Shown piece after piece: positions 12,124-43,010 of a stretch of 43,010 nt of DNA. Source of the DNA: Parcubacteria group bacterium (GTDB lineage Bacteria > Patescibacteriota > Minisyncoccia > Phycocordibacterales > JACNGX01); contig JACNGX010000021.1 of assembly GCA_014383885.1 (NCBI GenBank), positions 1 through 43,010 on the forward strand. Direction: 5' to 3'. Position 1 is the first letter of the stretch, and every line of letters starts with the position of its first letter. A model generated the notes under the pieces. That model ran no database searches. It was given only the letters and a program-made list of their open reading frames with translations, and was not told where the DNA came from. The position numbers and the translations under genes are program-made.

Positions 12124-13224
12124 TTACCGGTTCATCGGCATCACAAGTGAGAGAAATGATTGATCACCAACTGACTCAATAATGAGTGGTTTATTTTCTC
12201 CTGCAAATGACACAGACACACTATCTCCTGAAAGTGAAGGGAAACTATCGGTAATGTATTTGTAATTCACATTAATAGTAATTAGTTCACCTGATAGTGA
12301 TGCTTGTAATGGTACTCGACTTTCTCCTACATCCGTATTTTTTGTTTCGATGATGTATGTCTTTTCTTTTGGATTCAGTGACATGGTTACTTGTTTAAAT
12401 GTGTTGGAAAACACTATACTCACCTTAAATGCATCGGTGAAATCTTTTTTAAGTACAATAGCAGTTGTTGAATATTCTTTTGGTATAATTTGGCGATAAT
12501 CAGGGAATGACCCATCAATAATGCGGGAAGTCACATACACACCCTCTTTCTCAAAGACAATCTGATGATCATTGAATCGAATATCCACATCCCCACTTAA
12601 TTGCTCGAATATTCTAATAATTTCCAAAGTGTTTTTATGAGGGATAAGTATTCCACCCCAATCATTCACATTTTTATGAGGTATTTTCTTTTCTGCTAAT
12701 CGAAACGAATCAGTTGCAACAAATACCAACATATCATGTTCAGGATACATATACACACTTCCAAGTTCAGGTTTTACATCTGAAAGCGATGAGCTATACA
12801 CCACGCTTTTTAATCCCTCAACAAGTTTTTTTACCGGAAGAGAAAAACTTGTCCCTTGATCAACAACAGGTAGTGAAGGAAATTCTTCCGGAGAAAGGCA
12901 TTTAATAAGTGTATTATTTCCTTGTATTGAAATGGTGAGATTTCCTTCTTTCTCCTCAACTTCAAGAGTACCGTCTCCTGAAATACCTGAAAGAAAACCA
13001 CTGAATACAGATGCTGGCACTGCAACAATACCATCACGATCACTTTTTACTGGAAGCTCTATTTCAACACCAATATCAAGATTGGTTGCGCGAATCATCA
13101 TACGCTTTCCTGAAACCTCAAGAATGATTGATGAGAGAATAGGGAGTGAGAGATTTTTCCCTGTTATTTTCTCCACAAGAGAAATTGTTTCGGAAAGAAG
13201 TTTTTTTGGACATGAACATTTCAT
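12124..13224 (-). CDS. dnaN: DNA polymerase III beta sliding clamp.
   Basis: 366 aa with a three-domain clamp-like organisation. Located immediately downstream of dnaA. Confidence 0.9.
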   Translation of the reverse strand: MKCSCPKKLLSETISLVEKITGKNLSLPILSSIILEVSGKRMMIRATNLDIGVEIELPVKSDRDGIVAVPASVFSGFLSGISGDGTLEVEEKEGNLTISIQGNNTLIKCLSPEEFPSLPVVDQGTSFSLPVKKLVEGLKSVVYSSSLSDVKPELGSVYMYPEHDMLVFVATDSFRLAEKKIPHKNVNDWGGILIPHKNTLEIIRIFEQLSGDVDIRFNDHQIVFEKEGVYVTSRIIDGSFPDYRQIIPKEYSTTAIVLKKDFTDAFKVSIVFSNTFKQVTMSLNPKEKTYIIETKNTDVGESRVPLQASLSGELITINVNYKYITDSFPSLSGDSVSVSFAGENKPLIIESVGDQSFLSLVMPMNR

Positions 13225-13485
13225 ATATGATTATCCCCAAGGGTGTTTTGTATATTATTAAATAAAATTATTATTATTATAAGTACAGTGGAAAAGTGGA
13301 AAGATGAAAATCTTTATACATAGTAAGGATTGAATAGGAATATGTGATGTGTATAAGAATAGTGTATAAAGCAGAAAAGTTTTTATTTGTGTATAAATAA
13401 CAATATCTATTTTCTTTTCCACATACTATTATATGTTTGTACACATAAATCTCCATAGATATTTCCAGATAGTTACCCACATGTT
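13225..13485. other. Candidate oriC region in the dnaA-dnaN intergenic spacer (AT-rich, with DnaA-box-like 9-mers).
   Basis: Five one-mismatch DnaA boxes: 13231-13239 TTATCCcCA, 13348-13356 TGTGtATAA, 13388-13396 TGTGtATAA, 13425-13433 TTtTCCACA, 13473-13481 TTAcCCACA. AT-rich tract at 13251-13290. Confidence 0.55.
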
Positions 13486-14905: not shown

Positions 14906-14925
14906 TGTTGATAACATGTGGATAA
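14906..14925. promoter_or_regulatory. Tandem DnaA boxes upstream of dnaA: TGTtGATAA-ca-TGTGGATAA (the second is a perfect consensus).
   Basis: Read directly. They lie about 90 nt upstream of dnaA on its coding strand and immediately adjacent to the TACGAA array. Confidence 0.6.
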
Positions 14926-17560: not shown

Positions 17561-18862
17561 TCAGTAATTCACAGTCTCAAATGCATCGGCAACGCGAAGA
17601 ATCCATGGTGTCATATCGCGTTTGTTAGTGAAGAGGAGAAAAGATTCATCTTCACTGAGAACAGGGTTGATGAGATCAATAGCTGTATCATACATATTCG
17701 GATCAACAAGGAAAAAGCCGATAGACTCTTCGGTGTCATAATACCAGATGCTGTCTTCAAAGAATAGTTCTCCTTTGTACCATGTGTCGGGGTATCGTGT
17801 GAAAGGAAGAGAAAATGGTACACCACAGTAGATTCCCTTCCCTTCTGCATCCCAGGTGCATTTCTCAGGAAGTGTATCAAAGAGAAGTGCAGTTTCTTCT
17901 CCATCGGAGAGGATTTTCAGTGTGAGTGTGTTTTCCGAACTTTCAGAGAAAAGTATTTTTGTGCCATCAGGACTTGTGAGCGTGGTAAGACCGCTAACAC
18001 CACTTAAGATTGGATTGAGCGTATTTGAGAAGAGAGAAAGATAATAGCTGTATCCTGGAATTCCCGCTGCAGGCTTTGTGGTGAGATAAATGTAGTCGTT
18101 TTCCGCCCAATCGATAAGCCACTCGGAAAGGGGCGAGGAAAATGCTTCTTTTGGTTCCTCACCGGAAAATGGTACGATAATACCGCGAGAGCCGCTTGTT
18201 GTACGTTCAAGGAGAAAAAGAGAGTCTTGAGTGGGGTTGGTGTCGAAAGCAAGGGTACCAGTGCGGAGGAACTCTGCTCGAGCAAGTCCAATATCACCGC
18301 CCTCTTCTTCCGCTGTGAAAATCGAAATTCCGGTTCCCTCAATAATATCATCGTCATTGAGTGTACGCGCAAAGAATTCCGTGCCGTCAGTATTCCAAAG
18401 CGTGTCATGGATGTGTGGTATGGTTGTATTGGTGATGCGTTCTGCCCCAAGTGTGTCTACAGGGATATCAAAAATATTTCCCGTTGCCTTTTCTATCACA
18501 CGGACAATGAGGATATTCTTTTCTTCCTCGGACCCTTCTGTTGATTGAGGGAGTGTTATAAACGTTGCCCCCGATACGGGCTCAGGGAATACTTGCGAAA
18601 TGAGATCGACGCTCAGTTGTTTTTCGTCGTCCTGTGGTGTTTTGTCAGGAGAGTCTCCATCTCTCTCTTCACTACCAAAGAGGGAGTCGAGCACACCCTC
18701 ACCTTCTGCGCCACTAAAGAGAAAACCAAAGAAGCCATTATCTCCCACCCCCTCAGAAGAGTTGCCACCGCGACCAAAGAGAAATATTCCAACACCAAGG
18801 AGAACGATGAGGAGAATAGTACCTCCCCAGATGAATATGCGTTTTTGCTGAGAACTATTCAT
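17561..18862 (-). CDS. Membrane-anchored hypothetical protein (N-terminal TM, an acidic linker, and a large extracytoplasmic domain).
   Basis: 433-aa ORF. N-terminus IFIWGGTILLIVLLGVGIFLF. First gene of the minus-strand block that contains the T4SS genes. Confidence 0.6.
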   Translation of the reverse strand: MNSSQQKRIFIWGGTILLIVLLGVGIFLFGRGGNSSEGVGDNGFFGFLFSGAEGEGVLDSLFGSEERDGDSPDKTPQDDEKQLSVDLISQVFPEPVSGATFITLPQSTEGSEEEKNILIVRVIEKATGNIFDIPVDTLGAERITNTTIPHIHDTLWNTDGTEFFARTLNDDDIIEGTGISIFTAEEEGGDIGLARAEFLRTGTLAFDTNPTQDSLFLLERTTSGSRGIIVPFSGEEPKEAFSSPLSEWLIDWAENDYIYLTTKPAAGIPGYSYYLSLFSNTLNPILSGVSGLTTLTSPDGTKILFSESSENTLTLKILSDGEETALLFDTLPEKCTWDAEGKGIYCGVPFSLPFTRYPDTWYKGELFFEDSIWYYDTEESIGFFLVDPNMYDTAIDLINPVLSEDESFLLFTNKRDMTPWILRVADAFETVNY

Positions 18863-18871
18863 ACTTATTGA

Positions 18872-19903
18872 TTATTGGAAAAATGTATTTTCGGTGTCTC
18901 CGAACGTAATGGACAATGTTTCTTTTAAGCTCTGTAGCATGCGATCGGTATACGTAACTGAGAGTGAAAGGGCCGTGTTTCCTGTTGTTCCTTCCGGCAC
19001 ATCGATTGCCAAATCACCCGGGTTGTTCCAGTGTGACGAGACATGTCTTCCTCCTACCGACCAGTCGTAGGAAAGAGATGAGCGATTGTGATTGTCTGTG
19101 GAGAAGAAATAGGGCTCAGCACGGATGACAGTTTCTCTTTCTCTAAGGAGGATACCATTGACAAGAGCTTCATTAAAGCGTACACCAAGCGTGGGATGTT
19201 CTTCATAAAATATAATTTCTGGATCGACCTCGGGAAGGTTAATAGATTCACGGGCGCTGAGTGATCCGCCCGGAGATGTGGCGGTGACAGACACGGTTTC
19301 ATTCGGTAGGAGAATATCTTTCATGAGAAGAAGTGTTGAGCGACCGTACCCAGATTGACTTTTTGTGTCGCGATAAAAACCATTACGCTGCCAAGTGTAG
19401 GTGATAGTGTCGGCATCGAGCTTTGTGCCATTTCCCGTTGTAAGGTGTGGAACAGCAATAACTTTTACGTGTGCCTGAGAAGCCGGTAGTGCTTTTCCAC
19501 GGTAAAAAGGCGGTGTGTAAGCATCAATCGCTTCCCAGAGCAAATCGACGCCTCCTCCAGGTGTAAAACGAACAGTTTTGGTAATTGTTTCATTATCCGG
19601 TGAGACGATTGTCGCGGAAATAGTCATGGTGATTCCGGTATTTCCAGCTTCGGTACTGAAGGTGTTGAGGCCTGTTCCTTCAGAACGATAGGCACCATTT
19701 TCATACCACGTAACATATGCGCGATTCATATCAAACGCGAAGCTTGATACTGAAACAGTGATCATCTCACCTGCCGCCGGATATGCCGGCTCAACATCAA
19801 CAGAGACATACGATTCAAGCGCGTGAACATGAGATATCACAGCACAGAGTGAGAGTGTGATACCACATATGAGAACTGACATGTGGAAAATAAAGGATTT
19901 CAT
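18872..19903 (-). CDS. Secreted hypothetical protein.
   Basis: Signal peptide MKSFIFHMSVLICGITLSLCAVISHVHA (start at 19903, 8 nt after the VirB4 stop). The ORF track extends artificially to 20086. Confidence 0.6.
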   Translation of the reverse strand: MKSFIFHMSVLICGITLSLCAVISHVHALESYVSVDVEPAYPAAGEMITVSVSSFAFDMNRAYVTWYENGAYRSEGTGLNTFSTEAGNTGITMTISATIVSPDNETITKTVRFTPGGGVDLLWEAIDAYTPPFYRGKALPASQAHVKVIAVPHLTTGNGTKLDADTITYTWQRNGFYRDTKSQSGYGRSTLLLMKDILLPNETVSVTATSPGGSLSARESINLPEVDPEIIFYEEHPTLGVRFNEALVNGILLRERETVIRAEPYFFSTDNHNRSSLSYDWSVGGRHVSSHWNNPGDLAIDVPEGTTGNTALSLSVTYTDRMLQSLKETLSITFGDTENTFFQ

Positions 19904-19910
19904 AGAACTA

Positions 19911-21776
19911 TTATACCACGCCAGCGATACGGGAGAGTGGATTATCCGGCGTTTCATTCTCACTGCTTTCTTTAAGTGCTTTCTTTGCTTCACGAATCTG
20001 GAGTATTTGTGAGGGGTCCGAGGTAATGATTTGTTCTTCAGTGTAAGAAGCGAGGATTTTAATGGCGACATGCTTGAGTCCTGCAAAGAAGATACCTTCT
20101 CCTACATCGGATTCGAGAAGTAAGAATTTTTCCTCCTCAGTGAGGTTGAATGTTTTTTGGACGGTGTCGATGGCTGTGGGCGATTGTTTCAAGAGAAGCT
20201 GAATTGAAGAGTTGGTGATGATCGGTAAACCATACGGCGACCGGAGGAAATCGGACACGTCTTGGGTGATGGTGGCGACTCCTAGATAGTATTTTCTACC
20301 GCGCTTTGTCATGCCGAAGAGAAATGATGCCGTATCTTCGGATTTCATCATCCACCACGCCTCGTCGATCACAAGAAGGCGTTTTTTCAGCTCGCGACGA
20401 ACGGCATTCCAGATAAAGTGGGTAATGATGTGCATGGCGACGGTTTTAAGTTCGTCTTCCATGTCGCGAACGGAGAAGACCACAAACTTTTTGTTGATAT
20501 TTATGTTGGTTGGACGGTTAATGAATTCCGCCCACGTTCCTTTCGTATATTTTGAAAGACGACTTAAGAGAGATTCCCCCCCTTCCATGCCGGAGAGGAC
20601 CATTTCAAAGTCGGAAAGAAGTGGTGGGACAATTTGTGAGAGATCTGAATCAGGAGTGATGTCTTTGAGTGCATATGTTTCCGTGATAGCACGGTCAATA
20701 ATGGAGTCTTCTTCAGGGGAAAGACCGCCAAGCATGATGCGGAAAAGACCGACGAGTGAAATGGTATTTGCACGGAGGACGTCAGCAGTTGTCTCATCTT
20801 CGCTCGGCATAGGAAGATCGAACGGATTGATATGGTGTGGGGAGCTGAGTGAAATATTGAAATGGCGACCACCTGTAGCCTCTGCCATAAATTCATATTC
20901 ACGTTCAGGGTCAATTACGATTACTTCCGTATCAAACATGAGAGTACGGAGAATTTCAAGCTTGGTGGAGAAGGACTTTCCGGCGCCAGAAGTGGCAAAA
21001 ATGACGGAATTATAGTTTTCCATTGAGAAGCGATCGAAAAGAACAAGACTGTAATTGTGTCGATTGATGCCATAGAGAATGCCGCGGTCGGATGTGAGGT
21101 TGAAGGAAATAAAAGGAAATATGCTTGAAAGCGGTGAAGAATTGAGTTTTGAGTGAATGCCGAGCGAGTCGGATCCGGAAGGAATGACGCTTTTGAACGC
21201 GTCTTCTTGCTGAAAAAGACTTGGCTTGAGATAGACAAGCTTTGATTCAAGAATTGATTTGATTTCCGATTCAATACGATCAAGTTCTTCTTCTGTTTTT
21301 CCGTAGACGGTGATATAGAGACCAACGTCAAAGAGACGCTCTTGCGCCTGTTGAAGCTGATCGCGGAGGTTTTCAAGATTGGCATATGCGGCAGCAAGCT
21401 TCGGGTCACGCACCATGCCACGCTCCTCACGCATCATGATTTGGCTTTCAACCTCAGCAACTTTCTTTTGGAATTTGCGCAAAATAGCCGCGGTGTCCAC
21501 CGGGTGAATATGGATGGAGACGTCGAAGACAGCGTCGAGATTCACAATCGGCGAGAACCAGCTGTCGGCGAGATAACGTGGGTAGGAGATGACGAAGAAT
21601 GTGCGAGCGATACGGTCGCCTAAATTGAGTTCGCGCGGAGTGATTTTGAGCGCCGAAGGAGCGATGACATCTTTTAATTCCAATACTGCCGATTCATATA
21701 TTTCATGTGGTAATACAGGCACCGCCTCCGGGGTGTCTTTTTTCTTCCCTATTCCTAATGTGTTAAGAAGTGACAT
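19911..21776 (-). CDS. virB4: VirB4/TraE/PrgJ-type conjugative T4SS ATPase (core portion).
   Basis: Walker A FATSGAGKSF, Walker B LVIDEAWWMM, and the Gram-positive VirB4 N-terminal signature LGDRIARTFFVISYPRYLADSWFSPIVNLDAVFDVSIHIHPVD. First ATG at 21776. The frame remains open up to 21839. Confidence 0.85.
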   Translation of the reverse strand: MSLLNTLGIGKKKDTPEAVPVLPHEIYESAVLELKDVIAPSALKITPRELNLGDRIARTFFVISYPRYLADSWFSPIVNLDAVFDVSIHIHPVDTAAILRKFQKKVAEVESQIMMREERGMVRDPKLAAAYANLENLRDQLQQAQERLFDVGLYITVYGKTEEELDRIESEIKSILESKLVYLKPSLFQQEDAFKSVIPSGSDSLGIHSKLNSSPLSSIFPFISFNLTSDRGILYGINRHNYSLVLFDRFSMENYNSVIFATSGAGKSFSTKLEILRTLMFDTEVIVIDPEREYEFMAEATGGRHFNISLSSPHHINPFDLPMPSEDETTADVLRANTISLVGLFRIMLGGLSPEEDSIIDRAITETYALKDITPDSDLSQIVPPLLSDFEMVLSGMEGGESLLSRLSKYTKGTWAEFINRPTNININKKFVVFSVRDMEDELKTVAMHIITHFIWNAVRRELKKRLLVIDEAWWMMKSEDTASFLFGMTKRGRKYYLGVATITQDVSDFLRSPYGLPIITNSSIQLLLKQSPTAIDTVQKTFNLTEEEKFLLLESDVGEGIFFAGLKHVAIKILASYTEEQIITSDPSQILQIREAKKALKESSENETPDNPLSRIAGVV

Positions 21777-21780
21777 AGTG

Positions 21781-22431
21781 TTATAGTTGAATCGGCTTAT
21801 CAAGTTCGCCGGGATTAAATATGCGGTAAAAAAGTTCAATCAATTCTTCCGTACCCAGAGGCGATGTGCGGATACCGGTACGGACAAGTCCTTGTTGTAC
21901 GACATAGGCACGCTGTTCAAGCTGGGAGCGATTTACTTCAAATTCATCCTGCTCTTTATCCTCCCCTCTCGAGCGCTTTTTCTTCGTTCCTAAAACATCG
22001 CCAAGAATGCCTGTGTCGGTTGCAATGAACGAAGGGGTGTATGGGACGACGATGAAAAAGTTCTTTGACATGATATTAGTCTGTTCGGTAAATGTTTTAA
22101 TGAAGCGAATGTATTCGCGAATCTGTACTTTTGAGAGGTCGTTTATCTGCTCTTTTTCGCGCCGTTCGAGAAGCGCGACATAGGGGCGAACGTCATATCG
22201 TCGAGATTGGATGTAGATTTGTACCGAGAAGTCAAGCGAGTTGAGAAAGTTTTGAAATTGAATGAGAATAGATTGCTGTTCGTCGGGAGACTTAAGCGAC
22301 ATATTCACCGATGATGTCATGAGTACCATCTTGAGCGAACCGTCTTCCATCACCGCCACACCGTCTCGTACCTCTTTGATAGGCACGAATCGTTGTGATG
22401 CTTGTGATTTTTCTTTGTTTGATGTTGGCAT
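21781..22431 (-). CDS. VirB4 N-terminal-extension-like protein. It is a separate ORF; VirB4 may be split or frameshifted here.
   Basis: FVPIKEVRDGVAVMEDGSLKMVLMTSSVNMSLKSPDEQQSILIQFQNFLNSLDFSVQIYIQS resembles the N-terminal extension of long Gram-positive VirB4 proteins. Its stop codon lies 4 nt from the virB4 ATG. The two frames overlap across the A6 run at 21828-21833. Confidence 0.55.
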   Translation of the reverse strand: MPTSNKEKSQASQRFVPIKEVRDGVAVMEDGSLKMVLMTSSVNMSLKSPDEQQSILIQFQNFLNSLDFSVQIYIQSRRYDVRPYVALLERREKEQINDLSKVQIREYIRFIKTFTEQTNIMSKNFFIVVPYTPSFIATDTGILGDVLGTKKKRSRGEDKEQDEFEVNRSQLEQRAYVVQQGLVRTGIRTSPLGTEELIELFYRIFNPGELDKPIQL

Positions 22432-22446
22432 GGTGCTAATAATAGC

Positions 22447-22866
22447 TTACTGAACGTTCTTTTGCACATCCAAACTCCAGGCAATATCTTTGAGTTTGCT
22501 CTGTGAGAGTGATGGCACGTGCATCGTCTCCGGTAAGGGGGCAGGTTCCTGAACAGCGGCTTTTTTCTGAGCCTCTTTCTTTTTCCATTCCTGGCTCCAA
22601 ATGTAGAGCTTTGCGCGCGTTACATATAAAAAAGCGGCCTCCAAAACATCAATAAAAGGTCGCTTGTGTATTTTCAGAAACGCAAGCGCAATACCCAAGC
22701 TCGCAATGGGAAGAATGAGGAGTATGGCGAAGAAAAAAGGAAGTGATGCATACAAGACATATGAGATACCTGCAGCACCGGCCAAATAGAGAAATTGGCG
22801 AAACGAGAGAGCTCCGGCAAAGACCTTATCTTCAACTTCAATGAATTGTGGTGTTTGGAATTGCAT
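22447..22866 (-). CDS. PrgI/VirB3-like small two-TM T4SS protein.
   Basis: N-terminus MQFQTPQFIEVEDKVFAGALSFRQFLYLAGAAG, followed by two hydrophobic helices. Confidence 0.65.
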   Translation of the reverse strand: MQFQTPQFIEVEDKVFAGALSFRQFLYLAGAAGISYVLYASLPFFFAILLILPIASLGIALAFLKIHKRPFIDVLEAAFLYVTRAKLYIWSQEWKKKEAQKKAAVQEPAPLPETMHVPSLSQSKLKDIAWSLDVQKNVQ

Positions 22867-22939
22867 AGTTGAGTCGCAAGCTTTGAGCGCTGGTATCTAC
22901 AATACTAGCCGGCGCGCTACCGCGCGCCTCACTCCTCTT

Positions 22940-23599
22940 TTACTCCACCGGTTCACGATACGGATCAGGCGGAGTTTCCGGAGACGGTGAGGGAGCGGTG
23001 TTGGATTTTGTTTCCTCGCTATGCGCTTCTCTGAGAGTTGTTTCTTGGGTTATTTTTTTCTCAATAATACTTTGGTGAGTAGTCTCCTGTTTCTCTGCTC
23101 CCATATACTCTTGTTTTTGGGGAGCTCCAGGTAGGGATACTTCCTTTTTCGGTCGGGTCTCTTCACGTTCTGGTATGGGAAGAGGATGTTCAATTTCTCG
23201 TAAAATTTCATCGCGTGTCGGTAAGTGCATTGTCATTTCCTCATCTTTTTCTTCTCCCGCGACATTTTCTTTGGGGGCACTGAGAGATGCACGCATTGGC
23301 TCAAGAATCTCAGTATTCACATCAGCGAGAATTGCTTCAGCTGCTTCTTCGGAAACACCAAGCTCTTCAGAAAGCGTCGGGAGATATGACTCCCTTGGAA
23401 TAAGTCCAAGTATCACAAAGACGGTTATGTCATTGAGTGTAGCCAACTGATCGATGTGGAGATTGTGGTGATTTCCGATACGACGAAGCGCCTTCCCTGT
23501 TTCTTGAGATTCAAGAACTTCTTGTATTGCTTTAGGAAGAGCAGTGAAGCGATCCTCCATCTGTTGTTGTGTGAATTGTTGCATAGATACCAAAGACAA
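22940..23599 (-). CDS. Hypothetical bitopic protein (one TM helix and an acidic, low-complexity C-terminus).
   Basis: ORF within the T4SS block. TM segment ITVFVILGLI. Confidence 0.5.
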   Translation of the reverse strand: MSLVSMQQFTQQQMEDRFTALPKAIQEVLESQETGKALRRIGNHHNLHIDQLATLNDITVFVILGLIPRESYLPTLSEELGVSEEAAEAILADVNTEILEPMRASLSAPKENVAGEEKDEEMTMHLPTRDEILREIEHPLPIPEREETRPKKEVSLPGAPQKQEYMGAEKQETTHQSIIEKKITQETTLREAHSEETKSNTAPSPSPETPPDPYREPVE

Positions 23600-23605
23600 T
23601 AATGA

Positions 23606-26149
23606 TTATGTATTAGTATTTTTTTCTGTCGCTTTTGTCGTGTTTTTTGCTACGTTGGAAATATCTTCACGCGCGTATCTGTTTTGCTTTTCAGCGAGTC
23701 TTGTGTATTCCTTCAACTCTCCCATTTTCTTTTCTTGCCGCGAGGAAAGCTTACTGAGTGTTTCAAAGTTTGAAAGGCTTTGCGCGTGCTTTGATTCAAG
23801 ACTCGCGAGTTCTTGATTCTGTGCGCTTGATCGGTTGGGAACAGCAGAGAGCGCTCCGTTTTGTTGGACAAGTTTATTTTCTCGCTTTTCTTCAAGTTTC
23901 ATGAGCACGGCGATTTTACCAAGCGTTGTATTGAGCTGATCCATCTGTGTTTGAGCTTGTTGGGGTGTGCCATATGTTTTCTTCATAGAGTCAATCCTTG
24001 CTTTATCACGAGCTTTCTCTGCTTCGACATTTGCTCGCTTCTCTCTCAGTTCGTCACCCTTTTTAATCGCCGAACCAGTCTTTTGAGCGGCTTGCGCTTT
24101 GGCTATTGTTTTCGCCGATGCTACTCCTCTAGCGGCACGATCCAACGCTTGCTTCTTTGCCTCCTTCTCAACGTCTCTCATCTCTTCCTGTGCGGCGTCA
24201 TAATCCTCATGTCCTTGCGAAACACGCTTCAATGATTGGTAATACGGATTATTTGTCAGTGCCTCATTTGTGGTACCCGTTACTCCACTTTCTTTCAAGA
24301 GACGCTCTTCATATCGTGTATGTGCTTTTCGCGCCGCAGCTGCTTTTGTTTCATCTTTATCATTAAGGTCGCCCATCTTCTTTCTGAGCTCATCTTGTTT
24401 TTTATCTTCTCGCTCTACAGTACCGGCAAATCCTCCTTCGCCGCCCTTCACTCCCCATGCGCCGACAGATTTCGTGACCCCACCCATGCCAACAGCCCCG
24501 GCAAGACCACCTGCTTTACCCATTGCCATGCCGCCGAGCTTTGTGTTTCGCGCGTCAAAACTCCCCTTTTCCATGCCTTCCATAGCGCGCAAGCGGAGGC
24601 GATCAAGTTTCCCTCCGGAAGCAAGGCGCTGGCGCCGTGTCATGCCATCGGAGCCGACACGATTTAAATTCTTCATTGCGCCGGCACCCAAGACTCCGCG
24701 CCCGAGAAGCGCTGTGCCACCTGTCGCCACAGCAGCACCAAGCCCAACTGCCGCTCCGGCAATACCGGCGATTTTTTTGCCAATATCAAGCGATACTCCC
24801 CCAATTGAATCACACATTTTCTTGGTAATATTTTTTGCGTAGAAGAGGATGGCGGTGAGTACGGTGAATTTCAATAGGACGATGATAAATGTCTCAAAGA
24901 AATCTTTGTTATTTCCGAAATTATTCCAGGTATTGGCCCCTTCCAAAAATTGCAAGGTAAACCACAAGAGGAAGAGAAAGACGGTAATACAAAATGATTT
25001 GCTCACGAGCTCTCCCCAGAAATTTTTTCTTACGTATGCTGCGGATTGTGGCAAAATCATACCAACAAAGGCAAGCGGTGAAACAGCCATAAGAAGCCAC
25101 AGAATGGCAACACGAGTGAGAAAGAGAAACGATGTTGTGAAAAGTATCCACGCAAGCACACCCATAAGGGAGGCGCTCAGAAGAAAATAGATTATAAGAT
25201 TGAAATGTTGCGTTTCCGGAGGAACTACCTGGTCGGTCCATAGTTTCAACCAGGTGCCTCCTTTCGCTTTCACCAGCCCATTTTCAAGAGATATCATTTC
25301 ATTGATACTGGTGTAGTGCAAGAAAGCCCCCGACACCCCCTTTACATCACCTTCTCCAATCCATTGTTCGATAAACGTTCCTTTCAGTACTGAATTGCCC
25401 GATATAAGCTTTTCACCATCTTTCACATTTTGGGTTTTGTGTACTTCAAAGTCGTTGTAGAAAAACATAGCAAACATGTTTCCAGCATCCACAATGACAC
25501 GAGTGATGAAAAAACTAAAATTAATCAAAAGGGCAACGATAATGAGTTTGGAAAGAAGATCTTTGGCTGTATTGTTTCTAACACGTAAAATAGTAGCAAT
25601 TGCAACCCACAGCAATATAAAAATAAATGCCATGTTTGCCAAGTCGCGGACATTTTCCCATACTGTTTTTATAAACTCCTGATCAATAAGCCCTCTACTG
25701 ATAGAAAGAAGCAAGACTATGTCAAAGAAGTTGCCGATTGCTCCCAGAATAAAGGATGCCGGCATGTAGAGGAGATAATATGTCCCCACCGCGAGACATC
25801 CGGTGAAGCCAGGCGCCCCCTTCATGAGATTACATTTCATGTAATCGGTGATGTCGGGTTTATTATCTGCGCTAGATTTTTGTTTATCATAATAGTCTTG
25901 AGCAGCGCCATCCCCAGGACTGCCCGGCGAGCTTGTTGAGCGCACTGGGCGTTTCGGTACCTTTTGTGATATGCTGATATCGCGTATTGATGGTTGAGCA
26001 TACGCTTTGTTTTGCGAAAGAGAAGGGAGGTTTTTTTGAGAATTAGGTTGTGAAAAAGAAAATGGAGCAAGCAAAAGAAATGCAATAATAAAAGACACGA
26101 CTTTCGTTTGGATTTTCTTTTTTGTATGGGGGGTGAACTCTAATCTCAT
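23606..26149 (-). CDS. VirB6/TrbL-like polytopic membrane protein with a C-terminal Gly-rich plus coiled-coil extension of about 380 aa.
   Basis: Signal-like N-terminus, at least 8 hydrophobic helices, then a GAAVGLGAAVATGGTALLGRGVLGAGA... segment and a charged coiled-coil tail. The start at 26149 (MRLEF) is preferred because the upstream ATG at 26185 lies inside a terminator hairpin. Confidence 0.6.
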   Translation of the reverse strand: MRLEFTPHTKKKIQTKVVSFIIAFLLLAPFSFSQPNSQKNLPSLSQNKAYAQPSIRDISISQKVPKRPVRSTSSPGSPGDGAAQDYYDKQKSSADNKPDITDYMKCNLMKGAPGFTGCLAVGTYYLLYMPASFILGAIGNFFDIVLLLSISRGLIDQEFIKTVWENVRDLANMAFIFILLWVAIATILRVRNNTAKDLLSKLIIVALLINFSFFITRVIVDAGNMFAMFFYNDFEVHKTQNVKDGEKLISGNSVLKGTFIEQWIGEGDVKGVSGAFLHYTSINEMISLENGLVKAKGGTWLKLWTDQVVPPETQHFNLIIYFLLSASLMGVLAWILFTTSFLFLTRVAILWLLMAVSPLAFVGMILPQSAAYVRKNFWGELVSKSFCITVFLFLLWFTLQFLEGANTWNNFGNNKDFFETFIIVLLKFTVLTAILFYAKNITKKMCDSIGGVSLDIGKKIAGIAGAAVGLGAAVATGGTALLGRGVLGAGAMKNLNRVGSDGMTRRQRLASGGKLDRLRLRAMEGMEKGSFDARNTKLGGMAMGKAGGLAGAVGMGGVTKSVGAWGVKGGEGGFAGTVEREDKKQDELRKKMGDLNDKDETKAAAARKAHTRYEERLLKESGVTGTTNEALTNNPYYQSLKRVSQGHEDYDAAQEEMRDVEKEAKKQALDRAARGVASAKTIAKAQAAQKTGSAIKKGDELREKRANVEAEKARDKARIDSMKKTYGTPQQAQTQMDQLNTTLGKIAVLMKLEEKRENKLVQQNGALSAVPNRSSAQNQELASLESKHAQSLSNFETLSKLSSRQEKKMGELKEYTRLAEKQNRYAREDISNVAKNTTKATEKNTNT

Positions 26150-26164
26150 AGCACTATTATAACA

Positions 26165-26198
26165 GAAAAAACACGCCTTCTGCATAGGTGAAGGCGTG
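26165..26198 (-). terminator. Intrinsic terminator after the lipoprotein gene.
   Basis: CACGCCTTC (9-nt loop) GAAGGCGTG, followed on the minus strand by TTTTTT. Confidence 0.5.
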
Positions 26199-26208
26199 TG
26201 TATAGCAA

Positions 26209-26778
26209 TTACCTCTTTTGGGAGTTAATAAACTCCCTAGTCTCGTCGGGGAGGAACATAAGTCTCCCCTTTATTGCCGGGATGAAATCTCCCGGCCATG
26301 CACCTGTATAGATCGCCACGAGGCAGCGATCTATAAGTGTGTATTTTAGCGCCGCATACTTATCATTCGGCGCTATATATATTTTATGCAGATTCTCTCT
26401 TGCCTTAGTAAGAGAGAATCTGCCATTCTTGTTGTGCTCCGCTGTGCGGAGCATCTTAAAAATGTATTCACTCCACCCGTCCAACTCTTCATACCCCACA
26501 ACGGAGTATGAAGAGGTGAGCGTCTCGTGCGAGATGCTCGCTACGGTAATCTCCTCACGCACTTTAAGTGCGCGAGTGATGTACTTTAGATGCTCTTCCC
26601 ATTCGGGAATAGCGGTTTGTACCTCAAACATGGCGATTACTTCTTCGCCATATTTCTCTTCCAGCGTCGGTTCCGGCGTAAGTATCGGACCGACGGGATT
26701 TTTCTCGTCGTTTATGCACCCCGTCAGAAAGAACGGGATGGTGATGGCGAGCAACAAAAGTATTTTTCTCATTTTCAT
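26209..26778 (-). CDS. Lipoprotein (lipobox LTGC).
   Basis: MKMRKILLLLAITIPFFLTGCINDEK. The ORF track starts further upstream at 26931, but that extension covers the promoter. Confidence 0.7.
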   Translation of the reverse strand: MKMRKILLLLAITIPFFLTGCINDEKNPVGPILTPEPTLEEKYGEEVIAMFEVQTAIPEWEEHLKYITRALKVREEITVASISHETLTSSYSVVGYEELDGWSEYIFKMLRTAEHNKNGRFSLTKARENLHKIYIAPNDKYAALKYTLIDRCLVAIYTGAWPGDFIPAIKGRLMFLPDETREFINSQKR

Positions 26779-26857
26779 TTTTTTCTCCGTTTTGAGGCGG
26801 CGGCGTGAGCCGCCGCCTGGTTTATTTGTACAAGTACAAGATAATTTATTCTGCTTA

Positions 26858-26886
26858 TATATTAAACCAAAAACCTGTTTTGTCAA
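26858..26886 (-). promoter_or_regulatory. Promoter TTGACA-N17-AATATA (minus strand) for the lipoprotein/T4SS operon, with a GGCGGCGGC-tcac-GCCGCCGCC hairpin in the leader.
   Basis: The reverse complement reads cctATTGACAaaacaggtttttggtttAATATA. A perfect DnaA box TGTGGATAA lies at 26905-26913, just upstream of the -35. Confidence 0.45.
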
Positions 26887-26930
26887 TAGGATGTTTTGAG
26901 AGGGTGTGGATAACTTTGTCCTCAAAAACA

Positions 26931-26966
26931 CTAAAAACGCCCTTTTCAGGGCGTTTTTAGTGTTTT
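26931..26966. terminator. Bidirectional intrinsic terminator.
   Basis: AAAAACGCCC ttttca GGGCGTTTTT. Confidence 0.6.
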
Positions 26967-26978
26967 TGAGAGTTGCTT

Positions 26979-28466
26979 CTATTCTTCAGCGTCTCCTTGT
27001 TGTGTGCCAAGATGCTGCAGAATTACTTGTACGTTGTTGTATGTTTCGTTGATACGACCGACAACGTTCTCGACATCAGACTTTGTTTGAAGAGCGAGAG
27101 CGCGGGAATAGGTGTCGATTGGCTCGTGAAGATTATTGAAGTTTGAATAGAGAGGAATGATCTCGGATGGAGTGTCGGCACTGAGTGCTTGCGTGTGGAG
27201 AGATGTAAGCGAAGAGAAGTATGTATCGGTAATGTTGGATGTCTCAATGAGTGCTTGAACGGATGAGAGATCGTCGATTGAGTCTTCAATTTCACGCTGG
27301 AGAGAGGTGAGCCCTGTGCGGGTAATGATTACGACATCACCGGAATCAACAATGACTGATATACCGCGATCGTCCATATAATCAAGAATATCATCGATTT
27401 CGGAAATAGTGAGTGTGCCTGTGGTGATACCCTCCTGCACCATTTCACCAAGAGTGAGTACGTCATCTGAAAGAGCAAGTTCCGCTTCGATAATGTCGAT
27501 AAGCTCTTGATCTACACCAACAACTTGCTGAAATCCGCCACCACTCCCCGATCCGGATGAGCCACCGCCTGCAAGCGATGAGATGCCGTCGGAAATAAGG
27601 CTCATGACGAGATTTTGAATCATACTTGCCAGGAATTCCTCGATTTCATCGGCGTTTTCAAGACTTTCAAGAGGACTGCCAAGCGCATCGGAAAGTGTGT
27701 TCGTGATGAATTGCCCGGGAGTGAGACGTTCCCAGCGAGCACAGCCATCGTCGGCGTTGACGACACCATCGAGATTTTTATCGACACCGACCGACTCAAG
27801 GCATTTTCCGGGAAGAGAGAGGAGCCCGCCGCTTTGCTCAAGCTCAGACTTAACATTCCCAAGAGCATTTTCAACCTGGCGAGCGTGTTCTTCGGCTGCC
27901 ATGAACCCTTGACCGATAGCGCTGTTTTCCGGCATGACAGTGTGAGCAAGAAAACCTGTCCAACCACCACCTTCAAAAAAGCCGTCCTCGAACGCATCAG
28001 GATTGATAAGGATATCTTCAAGAGAACTCTTGGCATATTCTGAATATGGCGTGTAGCTTTGCGAGAGAAGCTTGAGGATCTCGGTTTTAATTGGCCCGTA
28101 AATATCCGCATTGCTTACTTCGCTCATGAATGCCGTGGTCACATCGCGTGAGAGTTTGGCGAAGAAGGCGTCGGGGTCGGTGATGAGAAGCTCATCGCCG
28201 AAAAAGCCCGAATTGATGAAAGAGCGAAGGTCGCCAATAATATCTCCCACGAGCATTTTAGCGACTTTCCATGCGATGCCGTCGAGACCGAGCTCTTTGG
28301 GAAGAATGGTTCTGTCACGTGTAATGTCTTTGAGTACAATCACCGCATCACCTGCTCCGAAGAGTGCATGGGCGGGAGCCGGACGTGCGATAATGCCACC
28401 AAACATAAAGAGTGGAACGAGGATGCCGAGTGTGAGTGTGCGAAGGTGTGAAAGGTGAAACGTCAT
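26979..28466 (-). CDS. Secreted hypothetical protein (495 aa).
   Basis: Signal peptide MTFHLSHLRTLTLGILVPLFMFGGIIARPAPAHA. Acidic. Contains a GGGSSGSGSGGG linker. Confidence 0.6.
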   Translation of the reverse strand: MTFHLSHLRTLTLGILVPLFMFGGIIARPAPAHALFGAGDAVIVLKDITRDRTILPKELGLDGIAWKVAKMLVGDIIGDLRSFINSGFFGDELLITDPDAFFAKLSRDVTTAFMSEVSNADIYGPIKTEILKLLSQSYTPYSEYAKSSLEDILINPDAFEDGFFEGGGWTGFLAHTVMPENSAIGQGFMAAEEHARQVENALGNVKSELEQSGGLLSLPGKCLESVGVDKNLDGVVNADDGCARWERLTPGQFITNTLSDALGSPLESLENADEIEEFLASMIQNLVMSLISDGISSLAGGGSSGSGSGGGFQQVVGVDQELIDIIEAELALSDDVLTLGEMVQEGITTGTLTISEIDDILDYMDDRGISVIVDSGDVVIITRTGLTSLQREIEDSIDDLSSVQALIETSNITDTYFSSLTSLHTQALSADTPSEIIPLYSNFNNLHEPIDTYSRALALQTKSDVENVVGRINETYNNVQVILQHLGTQQGDAEE

Positions 28467-28490
28467 AGGTGTGCGGATAATGAATAATAA

Positions 28491-29480
28491 CTAGAGGGCA
28501 AACATGCTACCTACCTCACTCTCTGAAAAGGTAAGTGAAGCATCGGATAAAATACCAACAAGCGACTGCGCCGCGTATTCCATGCGGGTAAGTGACGTTT
28601 GGTATGTGGTGAGTCCGGTGAGGCCGATGACGGTATCGTCGGACATGTCGTGAATGTAGGTGAGTGACATGGCCATCGTTTGAAGAGTGTTAAGGATTTC
28701 GAGATGAGTATCAATAAGAGTGGAAGGTACGGAAAGCGCAAAGAGTGCATCGTGCATGTCGGTAAAGAAGGTGATGAAGCGTTTCAAATCCGAGAGACGC
28801 GATAAATTGCCACTTTCGATTGCATCGGTAATAATAGCGACTTCATAGGGAGCGCCCAGCTCATCGTAAGCGAGAATGAATGATGCAAGTGTGTTGGCGT
28901 ATGTGCGCAGGAGCGTGGAGCTTTCGGTAATAGTGTCAACAACAATATCTTCTTCCGTGTAAGTGTTTTGAGGAATATTTTGAGCGACTTCATTACTGAT
29001 GATGTCTTCAAGAACAGAAATGTCTTCAATCGTTGGATTTCCTTCGGTGCCGATGTGATACAAATGACTCATAAACGTACGAGAGACAGCGTCGGAGCGC
29101 GTACTCCCTCCTTCCCCCGCGGCTTCATCTGAGGGAACAATGGGATATGCCTCAAGTGTGTCGTCAACGGCGTTTACAAGCGGATTACGACGCGCGGCGA
29201 TTTCAATACCGTCTCCGGTGCCGTCGCCGTCGGAATCGGCGACATTTGGATTGGTTCCCCAGAGAGCTTCTTCCCAATTAGAAAGACCGTCTAAATCGGT
29301 GTCTTCCGTGCCAAGTGAGATTTTCTCTCGTTCTTCATCAGTGATGACAAGAAGTGGCTCGGTGTCGATCGGTCTTTCTTTCGGACGAGTAAATGAATAC
29401 ACAGCTATACCGATAACAGCAATGAGAGCGACGGCAAGCACAAAGCGACTACTGGGGAGATAGTGAGTGATATGTTGCAT
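28491..29480 (-). CDS. Membrane-anchored hypothetical protein with a thrombospondin-type-3-like calcium-binding Asp repeat.
   Basis: N-terminal TM helix FVLAVALIAVIGIAVYSF and the repeat DTDLDGLSNWEEALWGTNPNVADSDGDGTGDG. Confidence 0.55.
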   Translation of the reverse strand: MQHITHYLPSSRFVLAVALIAVIGIAVYSFTRPKERPIDTEPLLVITDEEREKISLGTEDTDLDGLSNWEEALWGTNPNVADSDGDGTGDGIEIAARRNPLVNAVDDTLEAYPIVPSDEAAGEGGSTRSDAVSRTFMSHLYHIGTEGNPTIEDISVLEDIISNEVAQNIPQNTYTEEDIVVDTITESSTLLRTYANTLASFILAYDELGAPYEVAIITDAIESGNLSRLSDLKRFITFFTDMHDALFALSVPSTLIDTHLEILNTLQTMAMSLTYIHDMSDDTVIGLTGLTTYQTSLTRMEYAAQSLVGILSDASLTFSESEVGSMFAL

Positions 29481-42292: not shown

Positions 42293-42377
42293 CAAAATGA
42301 CACGAGGATAACGGCGCGCTCATGGTAGGTGCAAAAAAATGCGACATCTGGATGACATCGCGTTTTTTCTTTACTAT

Positions 42378-42794
42378 CTAATTATACTCAATATCTGTTA
42401 ATCTTCCGTCAGTGGCATATTCAATATTCACACCCCCTATGCATCCAATGGATCCCTCGTCAGTATTTTCTGTACAGCTTCCTTCTCTCATAGCTCGTAT
42501 GTCTGAACCTTCAGGATAAGAACTTCTTAAATCGTGAAGAAGAGCGATTGCTTTTTCGTGAGTCATGACCTCTTGACCAAAGGTGTAATATAAGGAATCA
42601 TCTTGTGAAAGTCTAAGACTAAATTCTATCTTTCCTCTTTCAGAATTGTCCTCCAAATCAGCTTCAGAAGAGTCAACATATTGAGGTAATTTTTCTTGCA
42701 ACAACGTTTGTAATGTTTCAATCACTTCTTTTTCTTTTTCCTCTGTAGGAAAAACAGGATCTTTGCAGGCTCGAGCTTTAGGAAATTTTTCCAT
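42378..42794 (-). CDS. Hypothetical acidic protein (138 aa).
   Basis: ORF with the tandem repeats immediately upstream. No recognisable domain. Confidence 0.45.
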   Translation of the reverse strand: MEKFPKARACKDPVFPTEEKEKEVIETLQTLLQEKLPQYVDSSEADLEDNSERGKIEFSLRLSQDDSLYYTFGQEVMTHEKAIALLHDLRSSYPEGSDIRAMREGSCTENTDEGSIGCIGGVNIEYATDGRLTDIEYN

Positions 42795-42834: not shown

Positions 42835-42998
42835 GCTCCCCTCACCTTTAAATACGAAGACATGTGGTACACTTGCCACTCCCCACCTTTAAATACGAAG
42901 ACATGTGGTACACTTGCCACTCCCCACCTTTAAATACGAAGACATGTGGTACACTTGCCACTCCCCACCTTTAAATACGAAGACATGTGGTACACTTG
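42835..42998. repeat. Tandem direct repeat of 4 x 41 bp (CACTCCCCACCTTTAAATACGAAGACATGTGGTACACTTGC).
   Basis: Perfect 41-bp periodicity at 42845, 42886, 42927 and 42968. The first and last units are slightly divergent. There are no unique spacers. Confidence 0.85.
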
Positions 42999-43010
42999 TC
43001 ACATATGGCG

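What the first reader, a model, noticed from the sequence alone, without database searches (positions are those of the whole stretch)
42835..42998. Four tandem 41-bp direct repeats upstream of a hypothetical gene at the window edge
The units are identical apart from the two outer copies, with no spacers. Each contains TACGAA and a TGTGGTAC core. The array sits 40 nt upstream of the start of the minus-strand gene 42378-42794. It may be an iteron-like or operator array, such as a multimeric regulator binding site or an origin of a cryptic element, or a variable-number tandem repeat. The window ends 12 nt after the last unit.
Basis: seen in the sequence. Interest (0 to 1): 0.55.

Follow-up and report, generated by a model that had tools for sequence, protein, structure and literature searches.

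The report
Stacked left ends of an insertion sequence
The four 41-bp repeats are four head-to-tail copies of the left end of a multi-copy IS30-family insertion sequence, left as a scar in front of an orphan gene, so this is mobile-element debris and not a regulatory array or a replication origin.

Summary
The array is real: four 41-bp units at 42835-42998. Units 2-4 are identical; unit 1 differs at four bases. The unit is not an iteron or an operator. It is the outermost 41 bp (left inverted repeat, IRL) of a ~1082-bp IS30-family insertion sequence. A complete copy (L019) reads CCACTCCCCACCTTTAAATACGAAGACATGTGGTACACTTG-TCACAT-ATGGCG... into a 333-aa transposase (NCBIfam IS30, 199.6 bits). The window's last 12 bases are IS positions 42-53, including the transposase ATG.

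The same end, as a single copy, abuts different DNA at about 35 sites in one metagenome assembly, nearly always at contig ends. That explains why this contig stops here.

In two other assemblies the array joins the neighbouring ComM promoter directly through an 8-bp microhomology. The IS body is therefore deleted at this locus. A sister strain with the same genes has no array, and another assembly shows three copies.

Best reading: an orphaned IS end that was first duplicated and then changed copy number by slippage. Whether it affects the downstream orphan gene is untested. Host: a Patescibacteria chromosome. Interest is low. The one unusual point is direct IRL-IRL stacking, which recurs at a second locus.

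The parts
42835..42875 (+). Unit 1. This is the outermost copy of the IS left end (IS positions 1-41), with the variant terminus GCTCCCCTCACC. It abuts native DNA (...ATTCT|).
   Evidence: One search gives the unit sequences. The GCTCC terminus matches the commonest IRL variant (GCTCCCCCC, 19 of 38 ends in assembly JACKQG01). Comparison with the empty-site allele places the IS/native junction here.
42876..42916 (+). Unit 2. IS left end positions 1-41, terminus CCACTCCCCACC.
   Evidence: It is identical to L019 positions 61-101, the left end of a complete IS copy. 14 JACKQG01 ends carry this terminus.
42917..42957 (+). Unit 3, identical to unit 2.
42958..42998 (+). Unit 4, identical to units 2 and 3. 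It runs on into the interior of the IS.
42999..43010 (+). IS positions 42-53: TCACAT followed by ATG GCG, the first two codons of the IS30-family transposase. The contig ends here.
   Evidence: It is identical to L019 102-113, where ATG GCG AAA TCA TCA AAG... opens the 333-aa transposase ORF. The 55-mer that includes it is shared by about 35 contig ends.
42824..42852 (-). A promoter-like site, TTTAAA-17 nt-GATAAT (9 of 12), facing the orphan gene. Its -35-like hexamer comes from unit 1 and its -10-like hexamer from native DNA. In the array-free allele the native hexamer is TATAAT. This is inference only.
   Evidence: Consensus scan and the empty-site sequence.
42378..42794 (-). Orphan ORF of 138 aa (pI 4.4) downstream of the array. 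It is a neighbour of the IS and not part of it.
   Evidence: No Pfam, NCBIfam or PADLOC hit. Only one homologue cluster among 5.8 billion proteins. 7 nonsynonymous and 0 synonymous differences from that allele.
42341..42361 (-). Terminator-like hairpin after the orphan ORF.
   Evidence: A second, stronger hairpin follows in L001 at 2497-2537.

Best explanation
Each 41-bp unit is the terminal 41 bp (left inverted repeat plus 15 subterminal bases) of a ~1082-bp IS30-family insertion sequence that is multi-copy in this Patescibacteria population. In the intact element this stretch is where the transposase binds and cuts the left end. It lies directly upstream of the transposase ATG (IS positions 48-50).

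At this locus an IS copy inserted between the strong native promoter downstream of ComM and the 138-aa orphan ORF. Its left end faced the ORF. The IS body was later lost by a deletion between GAAATCAT in transposase codons 2-5 and an identical native 8-mer 11 bp from the insertion site. What remains is an orphaned left end, now present as one older variant copy followed by 2-3 identical copies.

The first duplication probably arose when a second IS copy landed 41 bp inside the resident one. Later changes (3 versus 4 copies) are most simply replication slippage or unequal exchange between identical units.

The array is most likely inert as a transposon end, because it has no right-end partner. 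Its likely side effects: it lengthens the orphan gene's leader by about 135-175 nt, it offers four transposase-binding sites, and it breaks short-read assemblies.

Shown: the identity of the unit, the multi-copy nature of the IS, absence of the array in the sister allele, and the junction sequences. Inferred: the order of events, the slippage, and any effect on expression. The confidence given applies to the identity of the unit as an orphaned IS30-family left end; the proposed order of events deserves about 0.5.
For: - L019 holds a complete element. Its left end, positions 1-53, is identical to window 42876-42916 plus 42999-43010 and is followed by a 333-aa ORF. The right end shares GCTC..CCC..AAATACGAAGA..GGTA.
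- The ORF scores 199.6 bits on NCBIfam NF033563 (IS30 family transposase, cutoff 80) and carries Pfam HTH_38.
- More than 1400 homologues were found. Sources name them IS30 family transposase, and most lie on 1.05-1.4-kb contigs.
- L049 is a 1082-bp unitig that equals the IS body.
- A 22-mer from the unit hits 37 metagenome loci. Nearly all hits lie 30 nt from a contig end and read inward. Four contigs carry it at both ends. About 35 different flanks were seen, with three terminal variants (19, 14 and 5 ends).
- Eleven related IS copies (39-84% aa identity) keep the same core, CTCCCyACCyyyAAATACGAAG, in both ends.
- L001 and L027, from independent assemblies, join ...ATGGCGAAATCAT directly to the ComM-side promoter TTGACA-16-TGCTATGAT.
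- L006 and L007 carry the same promoter and ORF with 11 nt (ATTGTGGATAT) in place of the array.
- L001 has 2.9 copies against 3.9 in the window.
- L042 shows a second direct IRL-IRL stack, period 50, built from two different terminal variants.
Against: - No reads were available, so the copy numbers (3 or 4) could be assembler choices. The window's own genome could still carry a full IS at this locus.
- Target-site duplications could not be identified, so the exact IS termini are inferred only from where the flanks diverge.
- Classical IS30 'IR-targeting' yields only IRL-IRR junctions (PMC9333248). The first IRL-IRL duplication therefore has no established mechanism.
- Three successive nested insertions cannot be distinguished from one insertion followed by slippage.
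- Transposase binding to the unit is inferred from family knowledge and was not tested.
Confidence: 0.88

Rival explanations
1. A type III toxin-antitoxin locus of the ToxIN type. A strong promoter would drive tandem RNA repeats that are cut into antitoxin units and neutralise the protein encoded just downstream.
For: The layout resembles one: a near-consensus promoter (11 of 12, with an extended -10) lies immediately upstream, then 3-4 direct repeats of 41 nt, then a small ORF on the same strand.
Against: - The repeat is the end of an IS and occurs as a single copy at about 35 unrelated sites.
- The sister allele keeps the promoter and the ORF but has no repeats.
- The ORF is acidic (pI 4.4) and has no Pfam, NCBIfam or PADLOC hit.
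- No terminator lies between the repeats and the ORF.
- The leader folds no better than shuffled sequence (z = -0.26).
Confidence: 0.02
2. An iteron, operator or origin array: repeated binding sites for a host regulator or an initiator that controls the adjacent gene or the replication of a cryptic replicon.
For: The units are regularly spaced and identical, about four helical turns apart, in a promoter-proximal intergenic region.
Against: - The window is chromosomal, with dnaA, dnaN and clustered DnaA-box-like sites about 28 kb away.
- There is no rep or regulator gene next to the array.
- The array is absent from the sister strain.
- The sequence is identical to an IS terminus.
Confidence: 0.03
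3. An assembly artefact: the assembler looped through k-mers shared by many IS copies and produced a tandem array that does not exist in any cell.
For: The unit (41 bp) is shorter than common k values. The graph here is tangled by a multi-copy IS. Contigs break inside the array in several assemblies, and the copy number differs between assemblies.
Against: The diagnostic junctions exist in independent data sets. These junctions are unit 1 to native DNA, unit 1 to unit 2 (CACTTG|CCACTCC), and ATGGCGAAATCAT to the ComM promoter. The data sets are the window, L001 (ERZ24794647), L005 (ERZ23492479) and L027 (JACKQG01). A head-to-tail IRL junction cannot arise from single-copy IS ends without real reads that span it.
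Confidence: 0.04
4. A functional, selected IS-derived module. The stacked ends would be kept because they titrate transposase (a decoy that damps transposition) or because they supply promoter elements to the orphan gene.
For: - There are four intact binding sites in phase.
- Unit 1 contributes a -35-like TTTAAA 17 nt upstream of a native -10-like GATAAT.
- A second stacked-IRL locus exists (L042).
Against: The array is not conserved (0 copies in the sister strain). It is found at only two of about 38 ends. Eleven related IS copies have single ends. There are no expression or binding data.
Confidence: 0.07

Closest known systems
IS30-family insertion sequences (prototype IS30 of E. coli; copy-out/paste-in DDE elements)
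   Same: - One transposase ORF fills a ~1.1-kb element.
- The transposase has an N-terminal HTH_38 domain and scores well above the cutoff of the IS30 family model.
- The terminal inverted repeats are imperfect and about 26 bp long.
- The transposase stop codon lies directly at the inner edge of the right repeat.
- The element is present in many copies at different sites.
   Different: - This is an unnamed element from Patescibacteria, far from IS30 itself.
- Target duplications were not resolved.
- At this locus only the left end survives, and it is stacked in direct tandem. The described IS30 pathways give only IRL-IRR junctions (PMC9333248).
Solo IS ends and IS scars left by illegitimate deletion
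   Same: An isolated terminal repeat without a transposase gene. It is joined to native DNA through short microhomology (8 bp, GAAATCAT). A second, 38-bp solo end exists in L008.
   Different: Ordinary scars contain a single end. Here the end is present 3-4 times, and the outer copy carries a different terminal variant from the inner ones.
Modular dispersed repeats with a variable tandem module (pneumococcal BOX elements, boxA-boxB(n)-boxC; from my own knowledge)
   Same: A dispersed element in which one 40-50-bp module varies in tandem copy number between loci and strains.
   Different: BOX elements are non-autonomous, and variable boxB number is the rule for them. Here the dispersed element is an autonomous IS, and tandem multiplication is the exception (2 of about 38 ends).
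ToxI-type antitoxin RNA repeat arrays (type III toxin-antitoxin; from my own knowledge)
   Same: The promoter, short tandem repeats and small ORF lie on one strand.
   Different: There is no toxin homology and no terminator. The repeats are absent from the sister allele, and the repeat sequence is an IS terminus.

Membership tests
IS30-family insertion sequence (the unit is its left end) | DDE transposase that matches the IS30 family model | tested here: met
   The ORF at L019:90-1109 scores 199.6 bits on NF033563 transpos_IS30, E 7.8e-59, cutoff 80. Homologues are named IS30 family transposase by their sources.
IS30-family insertion sequence (the unit is its left end) | N-terminal helix-turn-helix DNA-binding domain | tested here: met
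   Pfam HTH_38 at residues 16-59, E 4e-12.
IS30-family insertion sequence (the unit is its left end) | Compact element of about 1-1.7 kb with a single ORF and imperfect terminal inverted repeats of 20-30 bp | tested here: met
   The element spans L019 61-1142, about 1082 bp, and L049 is a 1082-bp unitig. The left and right ends share the GCTC terminus (in the commonest left-end variant), the C-rich run, AAATACGAAGA and GGTA. The core is conserved in 11 related copies.
IS30-family insertion sequence (the unit is its left end) | The window unit is identical to the terminal sequence of the element and continues into the transposase start | tested here: met
   Window 42876-42916 plus 42999-43010 equals L019 61-113, including ATG GCG.
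IS30-family insertion sequence (the unit is its left end) | Multiple copies at different genomic sites | tested here: met
   37 loci were found with about 35 distinct flanks, mostly at contig ends.
IS30-family insertion sequence (the unit is its left end) | Short (2-3 bp) target-site duplication | tested here: inconclusive
   Only L019 shows both flanks, and no clear direct repeat is seen. An inverted 8-mer (ACTGAAAC / GTTTCAGT) flanks the element.
IS30-family insertion sequence (the unit is its left end) | Transposase binds and cleaves the repeat | not testable with these tools
   This needs a gel-shift, footprint or in vitro cleavage assay.
Iteron or replication-origin array | Adjacent initiator (rep) gene or origin context, conserved with the repeats | tested here: not met
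   The neighbours are ComM, an orphan ORF and an M23/LysM peptidase. dnaA, dnaN and the DnaA-box cluster lie at 12-15 kb. The array is absent in the sister strain.
Type III toxin-antitoxin (ToxIN, CptIN, TenpIN) | Downstream protein is a ToxN/CptN/TenpN-type endoribonuclease | tested here: not met
   No Pfam, NCBIfam or PADLOC match. The protein is acidic, pI 4.4.
Type III toxin-antitoxin (ToxIN, CptIN, TenpIN) | Repeats always accompany the toxin gene, with a terminator between them | tested here: not met
   The sister allele has the gene without repeats. No terminator-like site lies between the array and the ORF.
CRISPR array | Repeats separated by unique spacers | tested here: not met
   The units abut with no spacers. 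L001 shows a promoter and ComM beyond the window end. There were no Rfam hits.
Variable-number tandem repeat | Copy number differs between otherwise near-identical genomes | tested here: inconclusive
   The counts are 3.9 copies in the window, 2.9 in L001 and 0 in L006 and L007. The 3-versus-4 difference could be an assembler choice, because no reads were available.

The most novel reading that the evidence does not exclude
This Patescibacteria IS30-family element may have a previously undescribed mode of self-targeting. In it, an incoming copy would insert in direct orientation at a fixed short distance (41 or 50 bp) inside the left end of a resident copy. That would stack left ends head-to-tail, and the stacks might then act as transposase decoys or promoter donors. 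Two independent stacked-IRL loci among about 38 ends, each combining different terminal variants, is more than random insertion into a roughly 1-Mb genome would predict.
Probability: 0.1. Interest if true: 0.4.

Novelty: new member of a known kind. Interest (0 to 1): 0.17.

Why it matters
Mainly as a correction. A feature that looked like an iteron or operator array is mobile-element debris, and the contig stops here because a multi-copy IS breaks the assembly.

Two smaller points may interest specialists:
- An IS30-family element has about 35 insertion sites in one metagenome's Patescibacteria population. These bacteria have very small genomes and are usually thought to be poor in mobile DNA.
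- Direct head-to-tail stacking of one IS end occurs at two loci. The described IS30 pathways do not produce this.

Neither point opens a long-standing question.

Tried and rejected
- Structured RNA or a known RNA family: Rfam found nothing in the window. The leader folds like shuffled sequence (z = -0.26), and the single unit has no hairpin.
- tRNA or attachment site: no tRNA gene in the window.
- Type III toxin-antitoxin: rejected, as set out under the rival explanations.
- A second copy of either IS end in the window: none. The IRR pattern gave 0 matches, and AAATACGAAGA occurs only in the four units.
- The 22-mer in GTDB representative genomes and in viral contigs: 0 hits in each.
- More contigs bridging the array, sought through the neighbouring peptidase: only the same 59-kb contig came back.
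- Tandem left ends in related IS copies: none in the 11 copies checked.
- Classical IS30 IR-targeting as the origin of the stack: rejected, because it gives only IRL-IRR junctions.
- Literature precedent for tandem solo IS ends: none found.
- Overlap of the other JACKQG01 contigs with the window, which would have given empty or filled sites: none apart from the repeat itself.

Full report
**1. Observation**

The array exists as described. Tandem Repeats Finder gives period 41, 3.9 copies and 99% matches at 42843-43002. The 41-mer has three exact matches there, none elsewhere in the window at up to three mismatches, and none expected by chance.

Units 2-4 (42876-42998) are identical and begin CCACTCCCCACC. 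Only the first unit differs, at positions 1, 3, 5 and 8. The sequence diverges after unit 4 (TCACATATGGCG, to the window end). The gap to the ATG of the minus-strand ORF 42378-42794 is 40 nt.

**2. Extending past the window end**

Looking up the 138-aa protein returned a 59-kb contig from another assembly (L001). It continues beyond the window. Read in the gene's direction it shows:

- a ComM/Mg-chelatase-like gene;
- a near-consensus promoter, TTGACA-16-TGCTATGAT (11 of 12, with an extended -10);
- the array;
- the ORF.

L001 has only 2.9 units. Four shorter contigs break inside the array.

This layout first suggested a ToxIN-like RNA-antitoxin locus, and I tested that idea. The protein has one homologue cluster among 5.8 billion proteins (95% identity). 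It has no Pfam, NCBIfam or PADLOC hit and is acidic (pI 4.4).

The two contigs that carry the 95% allele (L006, L007) have the same ComM end, the same promoter and the same ORF. In place of the array they have only 11 nt, ATTGTGGATAT. The array is therefore a lineage-specific insertion and is not a partner of the gene.

**3. What the unit is**

A 22-mer from the unit is absent from GTDB representative genomes and from viral contigs. It hits 37 metagenome loci. Almost all of them are in one assembly (JACKQG01), 30 nt from a contig end, and always read into the contig. Four contigs carry it at both ends. The contigs share an identical 55-mer and then run into about 35 different flanks. This is the signature of a multi-copy element that breaks a k=55 assembly.

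One locus (L019) contains a whole copy. Its left end is CCACTCCCCACCTTTAAATACGAAGACATGTGGTACACTTGTCACAT. Next comes ATG GCG AAA TCA TCA AAG..., which opens a 333-aa ORF. The right end is ...CCTACCCGGATCTTCGTATTTGGGGGTAGGGTGAGC.

- The ORF scores 199.6 bits on the NCBIfam IS30-family transposase model (cutoff 80) and has an HTH_38 domain.
- It has more than 1400 homologues. Most lie on 1.05-1.4-kb contigs, and sources name them IS30 family transposase, some from the Patescibacteria group.
- A 1082-bp unitig (L049) equals the IS body.
- Eleven related copies (39-84% aa identity), including ones from Saccharibacteria genome bins, keep the same terminal core, CTCCCyACCyyyAAATACGAAG, at both ends. 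Each has a single left end.

Window units 2-4 are therefore IS positions 1-41. Window 42999-43010 is IS positions 42-53, including the transposase start codon.

**4. Structure of this locus**

L001 and L027 come from two independent assemblies. In both, the array runs inward only as far as ATGGCGAAATCAT and then continues into the native promoter. The intact IS continues ...GAAATCATCAAAG instead.

The 8-mer GAAATCAT is present both in the IS (positions 53-60) and in the array-free allele, 11 bp from the insertion point. The simplest history (inference) has three steps:

1. An IS copy inserted between promoter and ORF, with its left end toward the ORF.
2. The IS body was lost by an 8-bp microhomology deletion.
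3. The left end was multiplied.

Unit 1 carries the GCTCC terminus seen at 19 JACKQG01 ends. Units 2-4 carry the CCACT terminus seen at 14 ends. Unit 1 and unit 2 therefore probably came from different IS copies, which suggests that one copy landed 41 bp inside another.

A second locus (L042) has positions 1-50 of one variant followed directly by position 1 of another variant.

Once two nearly identical units were adjacent, slippage or unequal exchange would explain 3 versus 4 copies. Classical IS30 'IR-targeting' produces only IRL-IRR junctions (PMC9333248). The first direct stacking step therefore has no established mechanism.

**5. Function**

The leader RNA, array included, folds no better than shuffled sequence (z = -0.26), and a single unit has no hairpin. 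Nothing points to a structured RNA.

The most probable state is an inert scar: four left-end binding sites with no right-end partner. Possible side effects, all inferred:

- The leader of the orphan gene is about 135-175 nt longer.
- A -35-like TTTAAA from unit 1 sits 17 nt upstream of a native -10-like GATAAT.
- The units may titrate transposase.

The orphan ORF itself shows 7 nonsynonymous and 0 synonymous differences from its only homologue. Its status as a gene under purifying selection is doubtful.

**6. Context**

The window is a bacterial chromosome. It carries dnaA, dnaN, yidC, ruvB, a class A penicillin-binding protein, a PilB-type ATPase and a TraG/VirB4-like ATPase. DnaA-box-like sites cluster at 13.2-13.5 kb, where GC content and cumulative GC skew reach their minimum. 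The chromosomal origin is therefore about 28 kb from the array. The best named RuvB relatives are Candidatus Yonathbacteria and Patescibacteria genome bins at 74-75% identity.

**7. Verdict**

The iteron, operator and origin readings are not supported. The loose ideas of a 'protein-binding repeat of a cryptic element' and a 'VNTR' are partly right.

The feature is a stacked, orphaned left end of a new, unnamed IS30-family insertion sequence. It is a new member of a known kind and of low interest. The one unusual point is the recurrent direct IRL-IRL stacking.

The main uncertainties are the true copy number, whether the window's own genome still has a full IS at this locus, and how the first duplication arose. 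All three need reads.

Noticed in passing
window 13169-13481 and 14906-14925: There are six DnaA-box-like 9-mers (at most 1 mismatch) at the dnaN-start/dnaA-end boundary (four in the 261-bp intergenic gap, two just inside dnaN), and two more near the dnaA start. They coincide with a GC trough (0.35) and the cumulative GC-skew minimum. This is probably the chromosomal origin.
   Followed up: partly
window 42378-42794 (-): The 138-aa ORF next to the array is an orphan. It has one homologue cluster among 5.8 billion proteins, no family hit and pI 4.4. It differs from that allele by 7 nonsynonymous and 0 synonymous changes, so it may not be under purifying selection.
   Followed up: partly
L008 8426-8463: A 38-bp solo left-end remnant of the same IS lies in frame inside a 341-aa ORF. 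That ORF joins an acylphosphatase-like N-terminal part to an undecaprenyl-diphosphate-synthase-like part. An IS scar may have fused two genes.
   Followed up: no
L042 12843-12945: A second direct head-to-tail stack of IS left ends, with period 50 bp. IS positions 1-50 of one terminal variant are followed by position 1 of another variant.
   Followed up: partly
L001 1-52: The 59-kb contig that bridges the array ends in the right end (IRR) of another copy of the same IS, about 100 bp upstream of ComM. ComM is therefore bracketed by IS sequence on both sides in that strain.
   Followed up: partly
L019 1-61 versus L022 9315-9377: The same flanking locus appears in two metagenomes with the IS left end offset by 7 nt (an extra AGTTTCA). 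In L019 the element is flanked by an inverted 8-mer, ACTGAAAC / GTTTCAGT, which hints at insertion into a palindromic target.
   Followed up: no
L008-L044 (assembly JACKQG01): There are about 35 distinct insertion sites of one IS30-family element in a single metagenome's Patescibacteria contigs, with three left-terminus variants (19, 14 and 5 ends). That is an unusually high IS load for such small genomes, if the contigs belong to one or a few genomes.
   Followed up: partly
window 17561-29480: A TraG/VirB4-like P-loop ATPase (19911-21839, minus strand) sits among eight large ORFs (216-859 aa) with no Pfam hit. This may be a secretion or conjugation-like cluster.
   Followed up: no
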